Virus record (IMG/VR): IMGVR_UViG_2690316231_000009
Span: 1 to 14,246 of that record
Direction: 5' to 3' (one strand)
Origin: a virus
Lineage: Duplodnaviria > Heunggongvirae > Uroviricota > Caudoviricetes
Length of the DNA stretch: 14,246 nucleotides
This document shows positions 521-9,740 of the stretch, in pieces. Under the pieces are notes generated by a model. It ran no database searches and was not told where the DNA came from. It was given only the letters and a program-made list of their open reading frames with translations. The first letter of the stretch is position 1. Every line of letters begins with the position of its first letter. Position numbers and translations under genes: made by a program.

Positions 521-616
521 AGAAATGAAAAAAGGCCACGCAGTTGCGCAGCCTGATAAACCCTGGTTAAAATCCACACGATAACAACACAACAATATCA
601 GTATCTCATGCTATTG

Positions 617-641
617 CCCGAACCCATTCGGGCATTTTTTA
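617..641 (+). terminator. Candidate rho-independent terminator, plus strand
   Basis: GCCCGAA (617-623) / TTCGGGC (628-634) 7-bp stem, 4-nt loop, followed by ATTTTTT (635-641). No plus-strand ORF lies upstream, so the terminated transcript is unknown. Confidence 0.45.
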
Positions 642-646
642 CCCAT

Positions 647-673
647 AAAAAATGCCCCTCCGGAGAGGGGCAT
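647..673 (-). terminator. Candidate rho-independent terminator, minus strand, downstream of the TerB-like gene and small hydrophobic ORF
   Basis: ATGCCCCTC (652-660) / GAGGGGCAT (665-673) 9-bp stem with CGGA loop; A6 at 647-652 gives a U6 tract immediately 3' of the hairpin on the minus-strand transcript. Confidence 0.55.
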
Positions 674-838
674 GTTTGCATGCACATTCTTTTTCTTGCA
701 TGGTGCCGGGTGCCTCCCGGTGAATTCAGTATCAGCACCTGAATCCGCGATTATCCCATATACCTGGTTGCTGATCGCCCCTCCGCACAGGGGGATTCAC
801 CATGCAGAAGTGTTTTTAATAAACAGCAAATAAAAAAA

Positions 839-1600: not shown

Positions 1601-1607
1601 AGTGTAG

Positions 1608-1681
1608 CGCGTTGTACTGGAGTCGAACCAGTGACCGATTGCTTAGAAGGCAATTGCTCTGTCCTGCTGAGCTAACAACGC
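1608..1681 (-). tRNA. tRNA-Arg (anticodon UCU); the 3' CCA is not encoded (genome gives CUA)
   Basis: Manual cloverleaf fold of RC(1608-1681): acceptor GCGTTGT/ACAACGC (7 perfect pairs), D-stem GCTC/GAGC, anticodon stem ATTGC/GCAAT with loop CTTCTAA (anticodon TCT), T-arm ACTGG-TTCGACT-CCAGT, discriminator G. Positions 1605-1607 read TAG, so the 3' tail would be CUA rather than CCA. Confidence 0.8.
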
Positions 1682-1694
1682 AGAATACCGATAA

Positions 1695-1771
1695 TGGACC
1701 ACCACCGGGGACTCGAACCTCGCGCAACCAGCTTCGAAGGCTGACGCTCTATCCCGATGAGCTAATGGCGG
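1695..1771 (-). tRNA. tRNA-Arg (anticodon UCG), with a slightly imperfect cloverleaf
   Basis: RC(1695-1771) = CCGCCATTAGCTCATCGGGATAGAGCGTCAGCCTTCGAAGCTGGTTGCGCGAGGTTCGAGTCCCCGGTGGTGGTCCA. D-stem GCTC/GAGC, anticodon loop CTTCGAA (anticodon TCG), T-loop TTCGAGT, encoded CCA. Acceptor stem has two G-U pairs, T-stem has one A-C mismatch and position 1 is C. Confidence 0.7.
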
Positions 1772-1778
1772 TATGTGA

Positions 1779-1854
1779 TGGTGGCCCTTGCTGGATTTGA
1801 ACCAGCGACCTGGCGATTATGAGTCGCTCGCTCTCACCACTGAGCTAAAGGGCC
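1779..1854 (-). tRNA. tRNA with CAU anticodon, most like tRNA-Ile2 (ileX/ileZ type); part of a phage ileZ-argN-argO-like cluster
   Basis: RC(1779-1854) = GGCCCTTTAGCTCAGTGGTGAGAGCGAGCGACTCATAATCGCCAGGTCGCTGGTTCAAATCCAGCAAGGGCCACCA. Perfect acceptor stem, anticodon loop CTCATAA, T-arm GCTGG-TTCAAAT-CCAGC, encoded CCA. Closely resembles E. coli tRNA-Ile2 as I recall it. Spacers to the neighbouring tRNAs are 7 and 13 nt. Confidence 0.85.
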
Positions 1855-1882: not shown

Positions 1883-2596
1883 TCAATAATCAAGCCCTTG
1901 CCTGGATACATATCTGTCTGGCGGGAAGCCATAATAGCGGTGAAATACAGAAATAAAGTAGGACCTGCTTGAATAACCGCATTTTTCTGCTATAGTCTGT
2001 CCATATCCATGCCGGGAACATAACATATTTACAGCAACACGCATCCGCTCTTCCAGCAACAAGCGACTGAACATGCCCCCTTCATTTTTCAGTTTTGTCT
2101 TTAACAAACTCTCACTCATATGCAACTGTAGAGCAATCGCACCAAGCGTCCAGCTTGCTGATATATCTGTCTGAATTATCGCCCTGACTTTGGCACTTAT
2201 GCTGGATAAACATCCACTTAAAAACAATGACATCCGTTCATCTGTTTCAAACAGAGACAGGCAGGCCATCATAAGAAACATATCCGTGGCCTCTCCGGAA
2301 AATCCCTGGCTGGTAATTAAAGCCGCAGCCAACGCAGGATTGTTGGGTTCCAGCAACAGGTAAAGCGGAATGTCAGTCAGACGAGTCCTCGTCAGCTTAT
2401 GCTGACTTTCCAGATATTGACTTACGACGGATTCGCTTATATCGACAATTTTAACTTTGCCATAATGCATAAGGAAAAGCTCCCTGATGCATTTGGTGGC
2501 CAGAACAACTGAGCCTGGCTTAAGTGACAACGTATCCTTTTCAAGAAAAATATTAATTGGGGAGCAAACCATGATAACTGAACAGACAACAGCCAT
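1883..2596 (-). CDS. AraC/XylS-family transcriptional regulator (prophage moron)
   Basis: 237-aa ORF; the C-terminal about 100 aa (SESLLKTKLKNEGGMFSRLLLEERMRVAVNMLCSRHGYGQTIAEKCGYSSRSYFISVFHRYYGFPP) is a typical AraC-type double HTH. AT-rich relative to flanking phage genes. ATG at 2596 has no clear SD; an in-frame ATG at 2572 is an alternative start. Confidence 0.8.
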   Translation of the reverse strand: MAVVCSVIMVCSPINIFLEKDTLSLKPGSVVLATKCIRELFLMHYGKVKIVDISESVVSQYLESQHKLTRTRLTDIPLYLLLEPNNPALAAALITSQGFSGEATDMFLMMACLSLFETDERMSLFLSGCLSSISAKVRAIIQTDISASWTLGAIALQLHMSESLLKTKLKNEGGMFSRLLLEERMRVAVNMLCSRHGYGQTIAEKCGYSSRSYFISVFHRYYGFPPDRYVSRQGLDY

Positions 2597-2928: not shown

Positions 2929-3053
2929 GTCTTTTTACCCTTTCCGGTTAACGTGACATACCAATAACTCTTGTCTAAAAAGCCAGCAAGATAAAAAGCC
3001 AGTATTCACGACCACCAGCGTGTTTACTGTACTGCACCAGGTTTACAGGTACA

Positions 3054-3137
3054 AAAAAACCGCTCAGCGGCGGGTTTAAGTTGTGTGGCGAAGTAACCAC
3101 TCTTAACAGCATATTTTATTTTTTACGATTGTAAACG
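3054..3137 (-). promoter_or_regulatory. Candidate promoter followed by a weak hairpin plus U7 terminator (possible Q-dependent late promoter / tR'-like element)
   Basis: Minus strand reads TTTACA (RC of 3132-3137), 16-nt spacer, TATGCT (RC of 3110-3115). About 40 nt downstream, CCGC-TGA-GCGG (RC of 3062-3072) is followed by TTTTTTT (RC of 3054-3060). The stem is only 4 bp, so the terminator call is weak. Confidence 0.3.
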
Positions 3138-3200
3138 GTTGATTATTCATCTCCAATAAAAATAATTGTGTGGGTATGCCCTTAACAATGGATAAGAAAC

Positions 3201-3647
3201 ATGAATAAAATGACTGTACTATTACTTAGCGCAACTATCATTTCAGGTTGTACTTCTTCCGTACCATTGATAAAGAAAACTCAATCAGGAAAACCTGAGG
3301 GGGTTTATCAAAATACGACAAAAGATAAAGTCAAAGATGCCCTTGTGAATTACTGCAATAGTAGAGGGTTGATAATTTACAACGCGGATAACAGCAGTGT
3401 TATATGTGGTAAAGAACTGGAAGGCGGCTCTGCTGTTTTTGGACAAATGTTAATCGGCAATGCCTATTCAACAACCCCGGTATCAAAAGTCAGATTTACT
3501 ATCGCTCAAGTTAATAACGATACAAAAGTGTGGGCCGATATGTGGATGGAAACTCAAATGGCAATGGGGCAAGTACAACAAATGTCTATAACAGACAACG
3601 CAAGCAAAAACACTATCCAACAACGTCTTGATGAATTAAAACCTTAA
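3201..3647 (+). CDS. Lipoprotein of unknown function (148 aa), AT-rich moron convergent with Q
   Basis: N-terminus MNKMTVLLLSATIISGCTSS has a positively charged n-region, hydrophobic core and lipobox ISGC. Markedly lower GC than surrounding phage genes. Opposite strand to the lytic operon. Confidence 0.7.
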   Translation: MNKMTVLLLSATIISGCTSSVPLIKKTQSGKPEGVYQNTTKDKVKDALVNYCNSRGLIIYNADNSSVICGKELEGGSAVFGQMLIGNAYSTTPVSKVRFTIAQVNNDTKVWADMWMETQMAMGQVQQMSITDNASKNTIQQRLDELKP

Positions 3648-3648
3648 A

Positions 3649-3686
3649 TAAATTAAATAAAATGGGGAGAATAAATCGACTCCCCA
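3649..3686 (-). terminator. Rho-independent terminator just downstream of Q, lying between the convergent Q and lipoprotein genes
   Basis: TGGGGAG (3663-3669) / CTCCCCA (3680-3686) 7-bp stem with 10-nt loop; on the minus strand it is followed by TTTTATTTAATTTA (RC of 3649-3662). Confidence 0.5.
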
Positions 3687-3727
3687 CACATTAAACTGAT
3701 TCAATTACCCCCTCAATAAGAGGTCTT

Positions 3728-4093
3728 CTAACGATCCATCTCTAGCTCAATTTCTAACATCATTAACATGCCATCAACTACACCTTCAGCTTTTTGCAAT
3801 AAACGCCCAACCCAGCAATCAGAACGCCCATGTTTACGGGCAAGCGCCATAAAAGTCATACCACCTACATAATAATCCACTAATAAATCGTGCAAATCGC
3901 TGTTGTTCTTTTTCAGGCGAGCCATGCATCCACAAATGATCATCGCGTCATCGTCACAACATTGCGGGCGGGATTTTACTTTTGAAGGGATTAGTCCTTT
4001 AAATCCTGCAGCAATAGACGACCAGGTGACATCCTCGTGATTATTTGCCACCCATGCCCCCCAACGTTCAAGAACCATTTGAATATCACGCAT
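3728..4093 (-). CDS. quuD: Late-gene antiterminator Q, QuuD-like
   Basis: Starting at ATG 4093-4091 (GGAG SD 7 nt upstream) the protein reads [75 protein letters not shown]..., which I recognise as very close to the DLP12 prophage antiterminator QuuD (YbcQ). The track start at 4108 is a TTG extension. Confidence 0.8.
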
Positions 4094-8362: not shown

Positions 8363-8583
8363 GCCACACCTCCCAGACGCTTAAACATTTTTCCGGAGCA
8401 AAAGGCTATAAGCGGCATACTGACGCGGTAATTACGGCCCAGCGGTTCACAAACCACCTTCTGACATTCACGGTCAACCAGGCTAACACGTAGAACATGC
8501 CCAGCAGGCGTGGTGTACCACTGACCCGGACGAGGACAACGGAAAGTATGATTGGTAAACCGTTTGAAAATATTCCGGATCAT
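8359..8583 (-). CDS. Hypothetical protein (74 aa)
   Basis: ATG 8583-8581 overlaps the TGA stop of the Rha ORF (ATGA). No recognisable motif. Confidence 0.4.
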   Translation of the reverse strand: MIRNIFKRFTNHTFRCPRPGQWYTTPAGHVLRVSLVDRECQKVVCEPLGRNYRVSMPLIAFCSGKMFKRLGGVA

Positions 8584-9740
8584 TTGCGCCCCCTTACCTC
8601 TGAAGGGTTCAGCGACAAATTTATGAGACTGGCCAGCGCCGAAGCATCATTAATATAGTCATATAAGCTAACAGCCAGCGGAGATTCGGCTTTTGCCAAC
8701 ATAGGATAAAGCTGCTGCAGCCAGACCTGATGAATTGATGAAATGTAGGAACAGAGAACGCTGGCGTTATGTGCAACGTCGCTCGGTACAGCGGGCTTTG
8801 AAAGCTGTTTCTCCATCTGGTTAAAGGCATTTATGTATGCCTCTTTGAACCGGGCAGCACGTTTACCCGTGAAACCCATAGCAAGAAACGCAAAACCGTC
8901 TCGTGTGATTTGATAGCAAGGGAGCTTGCGTGTACCACCGTTCGGTTGATTTACCGAAATCGATGTCTCCGCAAAATTGCGGGCACAAAACTCTGGGGAA
9001 CAATCCAGAGTGCGGATCTTTTTCAGCACATCGTCGTGACGCTTGGAGAAGAAGTTGGCAACAGCCAAAGAAGTGGTAACGGCCTGGCCGTTGTCAATGG
9101 TGATTTCAGGTTGAGTGAGGGCTGGGATCGTAGCCATGATGGCAGCCTCCGTTGACAGTGAAAAACTTCCACCACCGGAAACGCCAATTTCACTGGTGGT
9201 GAACTGGACGGGGTTGGCGTAACCGGCGTCAACGGAGACCGGCGCACCTTTCGGTGCCCCCGCCCAGCCCACCATAATCTGGATGTGAGCAAATGCGGAC
9301 GATAAAAAAGACGCTGGCGCGTCATACATCGCCGTTGACAATTTCAGGACGCCAATCCCGGCACCCGCTTTATAAGGTGCCTGAGCAGTGTAACGTCCCG
9401 GAATTGCAGAATCAATATGCTGGTGGTCCTTCACACTCAACAAAATCACGCCTGAATTTCCACAAAGGACTAAAGCACTCATGCGGGTAGTCTTTGCGAA
9501 GATAGATAACGCGCTGTGTTTCTGGCTCCCAACGAATAACATGGACATAAAGCCCTCTTCCGTCACGAAACCAGCGGTTAAGTTCCTGCACAACTCGCCC
9601 CCCACAGTCAGGTAAAGTTCTCTGTGGTTACTTACAGCCAGGTGATTTGGTAATCTGCATTCATGCCGTAACAACAGGTGTTCAGCGACGCTGACCACCA
9701 GCTGTTGCGACAAACGGTTATTTGCCGTTAAACTATTCAT
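8580..9740 (-). CDS. Rha-family phage regulatory protein with an about 200-aa N-terminal extension of unknown function; strong internal start at 9137
   Basis: 386-aa uninterrupted ORF. Residues about 220-310 (LAVANFFSKRHDDVLKKIRTLDCSPEFCARNFAETSISVNQPNGGTRKLPCYQITRDGFAFLAMGFTGKRAARFKEAYINAFNQME) form a Phage_pRha domain. ATG 9740 overlaps the CII-like stop (ATGA). An internal ATG at 9137 with GGAGG 8 nt upstream would give a 185-aa stand-alone Rha protein (MATIPALTQPEITIDNGQAV...). Confidence 0.6.
   Translation of the reverse strand: MNSLTANNRLSQQLVVSVAEHLLLRHECRLPNHLAVSNHRELYLTVGGELCRNLTAGFVTEEGFMSMLFVGSQKHSALSIFAKTTRMSALVLCGNSGVILLSVKDHQHIDSAIPGRYTAQAPYKAGAGIGVLKLSTAMYDAPASFLSSAFAHIQIMVGWAGAPKGAPVSVDAGYANPVQFTTSEIGVSGGGSFSLSTEAAIMATIPALTQPEITIDNGQAVTTSLAVANFFSKRHDDVLKKIRTLDCSPEFCARNFAETSISVNQPNGGTRKLPCYQITRDGFAFLAMGFTGKRAARFKEAYINAFNQMEKQLSKPAVPSDVAHNASVLCSYISSIHQVWLQQLYPMLAKAESPLAVSLYDYINDASALASLINLSLNPSEVRGRK

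What the first reader, a model, noticed from the sequence alone, without database searches (positions are those of the whole stretch)
3201..3647. AT-rich lipoprotein moron transcribed against the lytic operon
The gene encodes a 148-aa protein with a clean lipoprotein signal peptide and lipobox (ISGC), has much lower GC than its neighbours, and is convergent with Q. Prophage lipoproteins in such positions are often superinfection-exclusion or receptor-blocking factors (Cor of phi80/N15, Llp of T5) or serum-resistance factors (Bor). I do not recognise this sequence as any of those families, so it is a candidate lysogenic-conversion or defence function.
Basis: partly seen in the sequence, partly recalled or inferred. 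Interest (0 to 1): 0.5.

Follow-up and report, generated by a model that had tools for sequence, protein, structure and literature searches.

The report
Prophage moron encoding uncharacterised envelope lipoprotein
A real, AT-rich accessory gene of an E. coli lambda-like prophage encodes a small outer-membrane-anchored lipoprotein from an unnamed family carried mostly by phages; it probably changes the cell envelope, perhaps to keep other phages out, but its function is untested.

Summary
Window 3201-3647 (+) encodes a 148-aa protein with a canonical lipoprotein signal peptide (lipobox ISGC, Cys17). Its GC is 37.8% against 48.5% for the window. It converges on the Q antiterminator gene (3728-4093, -).

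The gene is under strong purifying selection. It lies in an E. coli lambdoid prophage, occurs in 185 of 5,426 complete E. coli genomes, and is present in the phage PhiR40_1.

It is not a member of Bor, Cor or Llp: only the signal peptides align. It matches no Pfam, NCBIfam or PADLOC model and belongs to PHROG 3152 (function unknown). A profile search finds about 820 clusters.

Close relatives sit as promoter/terminator-flanked insertions in tail-tip operons, a nin region and a P1-like element. That is typical moron behaviour.

One correction: comparative alignment places the Q-allele-specific late promoter pR' at about 3108-3135 (-). The gene therefore lies between Q and pR', not inside the late transcript.

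The predicted fold is a KA1/BamC-like alpha/beta domain with a probable disulfide. Function is inferred only. An envelope-level phage-exclusion role is the leading guess (about 0.35), weakened because the lipoprotein does not co-vary with the carrier phages' receptor-binding domains.

The parts
3201..3647 (+). Lipoprotein CDS, 148 aa (mature 132 aa, about 14.5 kDa, pI about 8.5). PHROG 3152; RefSeq WP_001038609.1.
3201..3251 (+). Signal peptide plus lipobox ISGC. The Cys17 codon is 3249-3251. The +2 residue is Thr (no Asp), so outer-membrane sorting is expected under the E. coli +2 rule.
   Evidence: sequence; Cys17 invariant; a lipobox is present in 125 of 148 family representatives. The +2 rule is established knowledge, not tested here.
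3139..3166 (+). Candidate sigma-70 promoter of the lipoprotein gene: TTGATT, 16 nt spacer, AATAAT. It lies back to back with the inferred pR'.
   Evidence: 9 of 12 consensus match. Consensus match only; not shown to be active.
3663..3686 (.). GC-rich hairpin (GGGGAG..CTCCCC) between the convergent lipoprotein and Q genes. It has a U-rich tail on the minus strand, where it would stop read-through from Q, and an A-rich run on the plus-strand side.
   Evidence: This intergenic stretch is found only together with the lipoprotein gene.
3728..4093 (-). Antiterminator Q, Q21 family (PF06530). Its C-terminal two thirds belong to the same replaced module as the lipoprotein gene.
3108..3135 (-). Inferred late promoter pR': -35 TTTACA at 3135-3130 and -10 TATGCT at 3113-3108. 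It is specific to this Q allele type.
   Evidence: The core GTTTAC..CGTAAAAA..TATGMT is shared with Lambda_ev087 and Chlobot (same Q allele type). It is absent from 1720a-02 (different Q allele), which shares only the leader that follows.
3053..3071 (-). Intrinsic terminator (GCCGCTGAGCGGT + T7) about 45 nt downstream of the inferred pR' start; candidate tR'.
   Evidence: conserved in 1720a-02, Chlobot, PhiR40_1 and UTI89

Best explanation
This is a moron, an independently transcribed accessory gene of a lambdoid E. coli prophage. It is inserted between the Q antiterminator gene and Q's cognate late promoter pR'.

Proposed pathway:
1. The gene is transcribed from its own sigma-70-type promoter (3139-3166), which lies back to back with pR'.
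2. The product is exported by Sec, lipidated at Cys17, cleaved by signal peptidase II and sorted by Lol to the outer membrane (Thr at +2).
3. It presents, on a very short tether, a compact alpha/beta domain (beta-alpha-beta-beta-alpha-beta-beta-beta-alpha; conserved Cys52 and Cys69, a probable disulfide) to the periplasm.
4. There it binds an envelope component through two conserved segments, GNAYSTTP and KVWADMWxETQMxxGQ.

The most likely consequence is interference with infection by other phages at the envelope stage, meaning adsorption, penetration or DNA entry. This would be receptor-independent, or at least not tied to the carrier phage's own receptor.

Shown here: the gene, signal peptide, selection, module structure, distribution, and non-membership of the known families. 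Inferred: promoter activity, expression in the lysogen, outer-membrane and periplasmic location, the disulfide, the binding partner, and the exclusion phenotype.
For: Anatomy:
- Searches give the ORF, lipobox, low GC, promoter-like site and hairpin.
- Module structure: against the Stx phage 1720a-02, window 3109-4044 is replaced as one block.
- All 185 E. coli genomes that carry the gene also carry the same Q 3' end and intergenic stretch.
- The pR' core lies on the far side of the cargo in three phages with this Q allele type.

Moron behaviour of relatives, which sit at different positions in different phages:
- Between tail genes K and I: Salmonella, Morganella, Jejubacter.
- Between tape measure and M: Citrobacter, Haemophilus, Photorhabdus.
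- In a nin region: Phytobacter.
- In a P1-like element: Enterobacter.
- A promoter-like site and/or a strong terminator flanks the gene in Citrobacter and Morganella.

Periplasmic action:
- 125 of 148 family representatives have a lipobox. Others have type-I signal peptides with PDZ fusions.
- The two cysteines are nearly invariant.

Exclusion analogy:
- Experimentally tested exclusion lipoproteins lie in structural or tail gene clusters (mEpimmI Lpp, PMC11893012).
- T5 llp lies next to the receptor-binding gene oad, and phi80 cor lies after J.
- Distant single-domain members are also on phages or mobile elements.
Against: - There is no experimental or expression evidence for this gene, and no paper cites its accessions.
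- The gene matches no PADLOC model convincingly.
- Lipoproteins 63-72% identical sit in phages whose J C-terminal receptor-binding domains are unrelated, and in non-lambda tail types. The classical mechanism of masking the phage's own receptor is therefore unlikely.
- Some family members, PDZ fusions, are ordinary chromosomal genes. The domain may therefore have a general periplasmic role unrelated to phages.
Confidence: 0.35

Rival explanations
1. Host-fitness or virulence conversion factor. Like lambda Bor or plasmid Iss/TraT, the lipoprotein would alter the outer membrane to raise resistance to serum, bile, antimicrobial peptides or other envelope stress, so benefiting the lysogen rather than blocking phages.
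For: - It has the same gene class and moron anatomy as bor: a small outer-membrane lipoprotein, opposite orientation, in the late region.
- It is present in extra-intestinal, avian and O157 isolates, including UTI89 and APEC strains.
- It does not co-vary with phage receptor-binding domains.
Against: - There is no homology to Bor beyond the signal peptide.
- Carriage is low and not pathotype-restricted: 185 of 5,426 genomes from many sources.
- Relatives occur in phages of insect symbionts, Halomonas and Sphingosinicella, where serum resistance is irrelevant.
Confidence: 0.2
2. Periplasmic inhibitor or immunity protein. The domain would bind and neutralise an incoming cell-wall-degrading or envelope-targeting protein. 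Candidate targets are a phage tail-tip peptidoglycan hydrolase (by analogy with T4 Spackle), a bacteriocin, or a type VI amidase effector.
For: - It is a small disulfide-bonded periplasmic alpha/beta lipoprotein, as many immunity proteins are.
- In four phages the gene is adjacent to the NlpC/P60-type tail gene K or a small NlpC/P60-like gene.
- A conserved target would explain the lack of co-variation with receptor-binding domains.
Against: - No cognate toxin or effector gene lies next to it in any context seen.
- There is no sequence or fold match to known lysozyme or amidase inhibitors.
- Adjacency to K may only reflect a common insertion hot spot.
Confidence: 0.15
3. Lytic-cycle accessory rather than a lysogen function. 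The protein would be made during phage growth to mask envelope sites, so that progeny are not lost on debris (as proposed for T5 Llp), or to tune lysis.
For: - Most relatives are co-oriented inside late tail operons.
- Weak PHROG hits to Rz-like spanins were seen.
Against: - The spanin hits cover only the signal peptide, and the prophage has its own Rz-type lysis gene.
- In E. coli the gene is oriented against Q and the late genes and lies upstream of pR', so it is not part of the late transcript.
- Terminators directly after the gene in Citrobacter and Morganella indicate a separate transcription unit.
Confidence: 0.1

Closest known systems
Cor (phi80, N15, T1) and Llp (T5) superinfection-exclusion lipoproteins
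   Same: - They are phage-encoded lipoproteins with a short tether.
- They are carried as accessory genes.
- Relatives of the present gene sit in tail or host-recognition clusters, as cor and llp do.
   Different: - The mature domain is twice the size: 132 aa against about 60.
- Profile-profile alignment matches only the signal peptide.
- There is no co-variation with the receptor-binding domain, whereas Cor and Llp go with FhuA-using phages.
- In E. coli the gene lies next to Q, not next to J.
Bor of phage lambda (and Iss)
   Same: It is a small outer-membrane lipoprotein moron in the late region of a lambdoid phage, oriented against the late genes and presumed to be prophage-expressed.
   Different: - There is no homology beyond the signal peptide.
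- The position differs: between Q and pR' rather than after Rz.
- The size differs.
Cargo slot downstream of Q21/QuuD-type Q genes (nmpC of DLP12 and lc of PA-2, from memory; Blc lipocalin in Lambda_ev087; 385-aa protein in Chlobot)
   Same: A convergent envelope-protein gene directly follows Q and precedes the late promoter or leader.
   Different: The cargo proteins are unrelated to each other. Here the cargo is a single small lipoprotein whose promoter abuts pR'.
Helix-grip / KA1 / TBP-like lipoprotein domains (BamC domains, Francisella Flpp3 DUF3568, DUF4468)
   Different: - Sequence identity is 6-10%.
- Foldseek E-values are only 5e-3 or worse, with TM about 0.4-0.55.
- There is no sequence-profile match.
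- The similarity is of fold class, not evidence of shared function.

Membership tests
Bacterial lipoprotein (Lgt/LspA substrate) | N-terminal signal peptide with a positive n-region, a hydrophobic h-region and lipobox [LVI][ASTVI][GAS]C with Cys at positions 15-35 | tested here: met
   MNKMTVLLLSATIISGC; Cys17 invariant in 64 relatives; lipobox present in 125 of 148 representatives. Actual lipidation was not tested.
Moron (independent accessory transcription unit in a phage genome) | Absent from otherwise related phages, deviant base composition, own promoter and terminator | tested here: met
   Absent from 1720a-02 and most phages with related Q genes. GC is 37.8% against 48.5%. A promoter-like site and a hairpin are present. 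Relatives in other phages are flanked by a promoter-like site and/or a terminator. Promoter activity was not tested.
Bor / Iss (Pfam Lambda_Bor) | Homology of the mature domain to lambda Bor | tested here: not met
   hhalign of the family profile against lambda Bor aligns residues 1-37 only, i.e. the signal peptide. There is no Pfam hit.
Cor (phi80/N15/T1) | Homology of the mature domain to Cor | tested here: not met
   hhalign aligns residues 1-20 only.
Cor (phi80/N15/T1) | Blocks FhuA-dependent phages when expressed | not testable with these tools
   Needs a plating assay.
Llp (T5) | Homology of the mature domain to Llp | tested here: not met
   hhalign aligns residues 1-22 only.
Known anti-phage defence systems (PADLOC) | Match to a PADLOC model | tested here: not met
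   Only a weak partial hit to PbeC (E 0.014, 11.9 bits).
PHROG 3152 | Full-length match to the family profile | tested here: met
   E 3e-104 over 1-148 of 148; the family has no known function.
Rz1-type o-spanin | Short proline-rich lipoprotein embedded in or next to Rz in the lysis cassette | tested here: not met
   PHROG hits (E about 0.02-0.035) cover only the signal peptide. The gene is not in the lysis cassette, which has its own lysis protein.

The most novel reading that the evidence does not exclude
The gene would represent a large, unnamed family of periplasm-facing lipoproteins (about 820 clusters at 50% identity, no Pfam model) borne by phages and mobile elements. These would protect cells by a receptor-independent mechanism. 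Examples would be acting from the periplasmic face of the outer membrane on conserved machinery (a BamC-like fold and one BamD/YfiO-type TPR fusion hint at BAM) or on the incoming tail tip. The result would be a new class of envelope-level exclusion shared by sipho- and myovirus prophages across Proteobacteria.
Probability: 0.12. Interest if true: 0.7.

Novelty: new member of a known kind. Interest (0 to 1): 0.4.

Why it matters
If the protein excludes phages, it would add a widespread family to the short list of envelope-level exclusion lipoproteins. Its lack of linkage to a particular receptor-binding protein would point to a mechanism different from Cor and Llp. That is relevant to predicting phage host range and to phage therapy against E. 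coli, since the gene is present in UPEC, APEC and some O157 strains.

The anatomy also documents a recurrent design in phages with Q21-type antiterminators: cargo is lodged between Q and its allele-specific late promoter. This matters for annotating late promoters and for understanding how conversion genes escape late-operon control. As things stand it is a well-supported but functionally uncharacterised moron.

Tried and rejected
- Pfam, NCBIfam and PADLOC scans of the protein, and a Pfam scan of 64 diverse relatives, gave nothing beyond the lipid-attachment site.
- PDB sequence-profile searches gave only signal-peptide-level noise.
- Foldseek against BFVD viral structures found nothing at E <= 1e-3.
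- The AFDB library was unavailable.
- Literature searches for the accessions and the PHROG id found nothing. The only paper naming PhiR40_1 uses it as a test phage for an unrelated defence system.
- The UniRef name 'VirB7' on the Xenorhabdus relative was judged a lipobox-driven mislabel.
- Co-variation between the lipoprotein and J C-terminal domains was tested and not found.
- The promoter-like site at 3182-3211 (+) was rejected because its -10 lies inside the coding sequence.
- A spanin role was rejected.
- A related-loci run with the broad alignment failed for lack of conserved stretches. The narrower run returned 13 loci.
- No source gives any relative a functional name.

Full report
**What the window is**

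The window is 100% identical to a lambdoid prophage in the chromosome of E. coli strain E2 and several other poultry and bovine isolates. It is 98% identical over the region of interest to the phages PhiR40_1 and PhiR55_1.

On the minus strand the gene order is:
- the early-right operon (Rha, methylase, RusA, KilA-N, DUF968, Q);
- a 65-aa gene (PHROG 331);
- an AraC-family regulator;
- three tRNAs, TerB and further late-region cargo.

**Checking the observation**

- The ORF at 3201-3647 (+) translates to 148 aa starting MNKMTVLLLSATIISGC.
- The N-terminus has Lys3, an uncharged hydrophobic core, and I-S-G-C with Cys at position 17. That is a textbook lipobox.
- Cys17 is the only invariant column in an alignment of 64 relatives that go down to about 28% identity.
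- 125 of 148 family representatives carry a lipobox.
- Thr at +2 (no Asp) predicts Lol-dependent sorting to the outer membrane. This rests on the established +2 rule and was not tested.
- Gene GC is 37.8% (GC3 33%). The window is 48.5%, Q 44%, DUF968 56% and the neighbouring 65-aa gene 50.5%.
- Q (PF06530, E 2e-51; a distant relative of the Q21 protein of PDB 6p18, E 7.5e-9) is at 3728-4093 (-). The genes therefore converge.
- The ORF is a real gene. Against relatives from Salmonella, Jejubacter, Citrobacter, Enterobacter and Phytobacter, dN is 0.09-0.56 while synonymous sites are saturated or nearly so. The closest pair gives dN/dS of about 0.07.

**Module structure and the position of the late promoter**

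Compared with the Stx phage 1720a-02, the window is collinear up to 3108 and again from 4045. The block between is replaced: the C-terminal two thirds of Q, an 80-bp spacer, the lipoprotein gene and about 90 bp upstream of it. The two Q proteins are 50% identical.

In 5,426 complete E. coli genomes, 185 carry the lipoprotein gene, nearly all at 99% identity or more. The same number, 185, carry the Q 3' end plus spacer. Other Q alleles match only inside the coding region.

Where the shared sequence resumes, all compared phages have GTTAAGAGTGGTTACTTCGCCACAC followed by a strong intrinsic terminator (window 3071-3053, minus). Immediately upstream of that leader the window has TTTACA, 16 nt, then TATGCT (3135-3108, minus).

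This promoter core (GTTTAC..CGTAAAAA..TATGMT) behaves as follows:
- It is conserved in Lambda_ev087 and Chlobot, whose Q genes have the same C-terminal allele type (81-86% DNA identity). It is conserved there even though the flanks differ.
- In both phages it lies on the far side of the cargo that follows Q.
- 1720a-02, with the other Q allele, has a different sequence at that place.

Co-inheritance of a promoter core with the Q allele is what one expects of the Q-binding element and pR'. I therefore infer, with roughly 0.7 confidence, that pR' is at 3108-3135 (-) and that 3053-3071 is tR'. The lipoprotein gene would then lie between Q and pR'. It is antisense only to read-through from the early operon, which meets the hairpin at 3663-3686 with its U-rich minus-strand tail.

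The gene's own best promoter candidate is TTGATT, 16 nt, AATAAT at 3139-3166 (+), back to back with pR'. A higher-scoring site at 3182-3211 was rejected because its -10 lies inside the ORF.

**It is a moron**

The slot after Q holds different convergent cargo in related phages: a Blc-type lipocalin in Lambda_ev087 and a 385-aa protein in Chlobot. From memory, nmpC in DLP12 and lc in PA-2 occupy the same slot.

Relatives of the lipoprotein at 50-72% identity occur elsewhere in other phages:
- between tail genes K and I in Salmonella, Morganella and Jejubacter;
- between the tape-measure gene and M in Citrobacter, Haemophilus and Photorhabdus;
- after the distal tail genes in a Proteus phage;
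- in a nin region in Phytobacter;
- in a P1-like element in Enterobacter.

The Citrobacter copy has a promoter-like site and a strong terminator. The Morganella copy has a strong terminator right after the stop codon, inside the tail operon.

**The protein family**

There is no Pfam, NCBIfam or convincing PADLOC match. The protein is a full-length member of PHROG 3152, function unknown.

A profile search of 1.84 billion representatives finds 823 clusters at E <= 1e-3, 52 of them at E <= 1e-30. None of 64 diverse members hits a Pfam domain other than the lipid-attachment site. No source gives any relative a functional name.

Context of the family members:
- Distant single-domain members are again in phage or mobile-element contexts: Halomonas next to a probable terminase gene (judged by eye from the ORF translation, not scanned), a Sphingosinicella locus with what looks like a tape-measure gene (same caveat), and an integrative mobilisable element.
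- A PDZ-SHOCT fusion lies near a small terminase gene.
- Some members lack the lipobox, have ordinary signal peptides and carry C-terminal PDZ, TPR (YfiO-like) or SHOCT domains.
- One PDZ fusion lies among housekeeping genes.

The domain is therefore extracytoplasmic and most likely works in the periplasm.

**Structure**

AlphaFold2 on a 21-sequence alignment gives mean pLDDT 85 and pTM 0.75, with the topology beta-alpha-beta-beta-alpha-beta-beta-beta-alpha. Confidence dips at the highly conserved GNAYSTTP loop (residues 86-93).

Cys52 and Cys69 are nearly invariant, which suggests a disulfide.

Fold matches:
- Foldseek ranks the BamC N-domain first, but only at E 5e-3.
- Nothing significant appears among viral models.

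This defines a fold class, not a function.

Profile-profile comparison of the family with lambda Bor, phi80 Cor and T5 Llp aligns only the signal peptides: residues 1-37, 1-20 and 1-22. The gene is not a member of any of them.

**Function**

In favour of an exclusion role:
- the gene class;
- the tail-tip and host-recognition location of most relatives, as for cor, llp and the experimentally tested mEpimmI Lpp proteins (PMC11893012);
- the predominance of phage and mobile-element carriers.

Against the classical version of that role:
- The J proteins of five carrier phages have unrelated C-terminal receptor-binding regions, while their lipoproteins are 63-72% identical to the E. coli one.
- The family also occurs in non-lambda tails and in a P1-like element.

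If it excludes phages, it probably does so through a conserved envelope target rather than the carrier's own receptor.

The rival explanations cannot be excluded with the tools available: a Bor-like host-fitness factor, a periplasmic inhibitor of wall-degrading proteins, or a lytic-cycle accessory. I put exclusion at about 0.35, a fitness or virulence factor at 0.2, an inhibitor or immunity protein at 0.15, a lytic accessory at 0.1, and the remainder on something else.

**Verdict**

The moron interpretation is well supported and refined by the position between Q and pR'. The defence function remains a reasonable but untested hypothesis.

This is a new, uncharacterised member of a known kind of element. 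Interest is moderate (0.4). It would rise if a receptor-independent exclusion mechanism were demonstrated.

Noticed in passing
window 579-640 (+) and 641-831 (-): Rfam gathering-score matches to the anti-GcvB sRNA AgvB (96.5 bits) and to STnc100 (143 bits). They lie in the late-region cargo between the DUF6645 and DUF3927 genes.
   Followed up: no
window 9192-9279 (-) and 9304-9380 (-): Rfam matches to C4 antisense RNA (81 bits) and IsrK (62 bits), overlapping the Rha-family ORF 8580-9740. This suggests a P1/P7-type C4 or IsrK-like RNA switch in the early region.
   Followed up: no
window 3108-3135 (-), with L009 about 555-590 and L010 about 800-840: A promoter core GTTTAC..CGTAAAAA..TATGMT is conserved among phages sharing this Q allele type. 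It differs in 1720a-02, which shares only the transcribed leader and terminator. This looks like the allele-specific pR'/Q-binding element, with cargo lodged between Q and pR' in all three phages.
   Followed up: partly
window 1883-2596 (-): A prophage AraC-family regulator most similar to YdeO and GadX (NCBIfam E 3.5e-31, far below the equivalog cut-offs; PHROG 1450). It could rewire host acid-resistance or virulence regulation.
   Followed up: no
window 1607-1854 (-): Three phage-borne tRNA genes: Arg-tct, Arg-tcg, and a CAT-anticodon tRNA that ARAGORN calls Met and PGAP calls Ile.
   Followed up: no
L006 8461-8478 and L016 6492-6509: In the Citrobacter and Morganella prophages a strong intrinsic terminator follows the lipoprotein homologue inside the tail operon. 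Late transcription would need antitermination to pass it.
   Followed up: partly
proteins P0100, P0105, P0117, P0142, P0187, P0106, P0051, P0054: Longer family members fuse the domain to PDZ, PDZ+SHOCT, YfiO/TPR, or an unannotated Cys-rich C-terminal module (KGPGFETY..C..NGD..CEFGNCR). P0100 lies in a housekeeping chromosomal context.
   Followed up: partly
L030 2105-2638 (phi80 morF): phi80 carries an annotated moron (morF) between tail genes I and J. This is the same tail-tip insertion zone where relatives of the lipoprotein are found in other phages. It is not homologous to the lipoprotein by tblastn.
   Followed up: no
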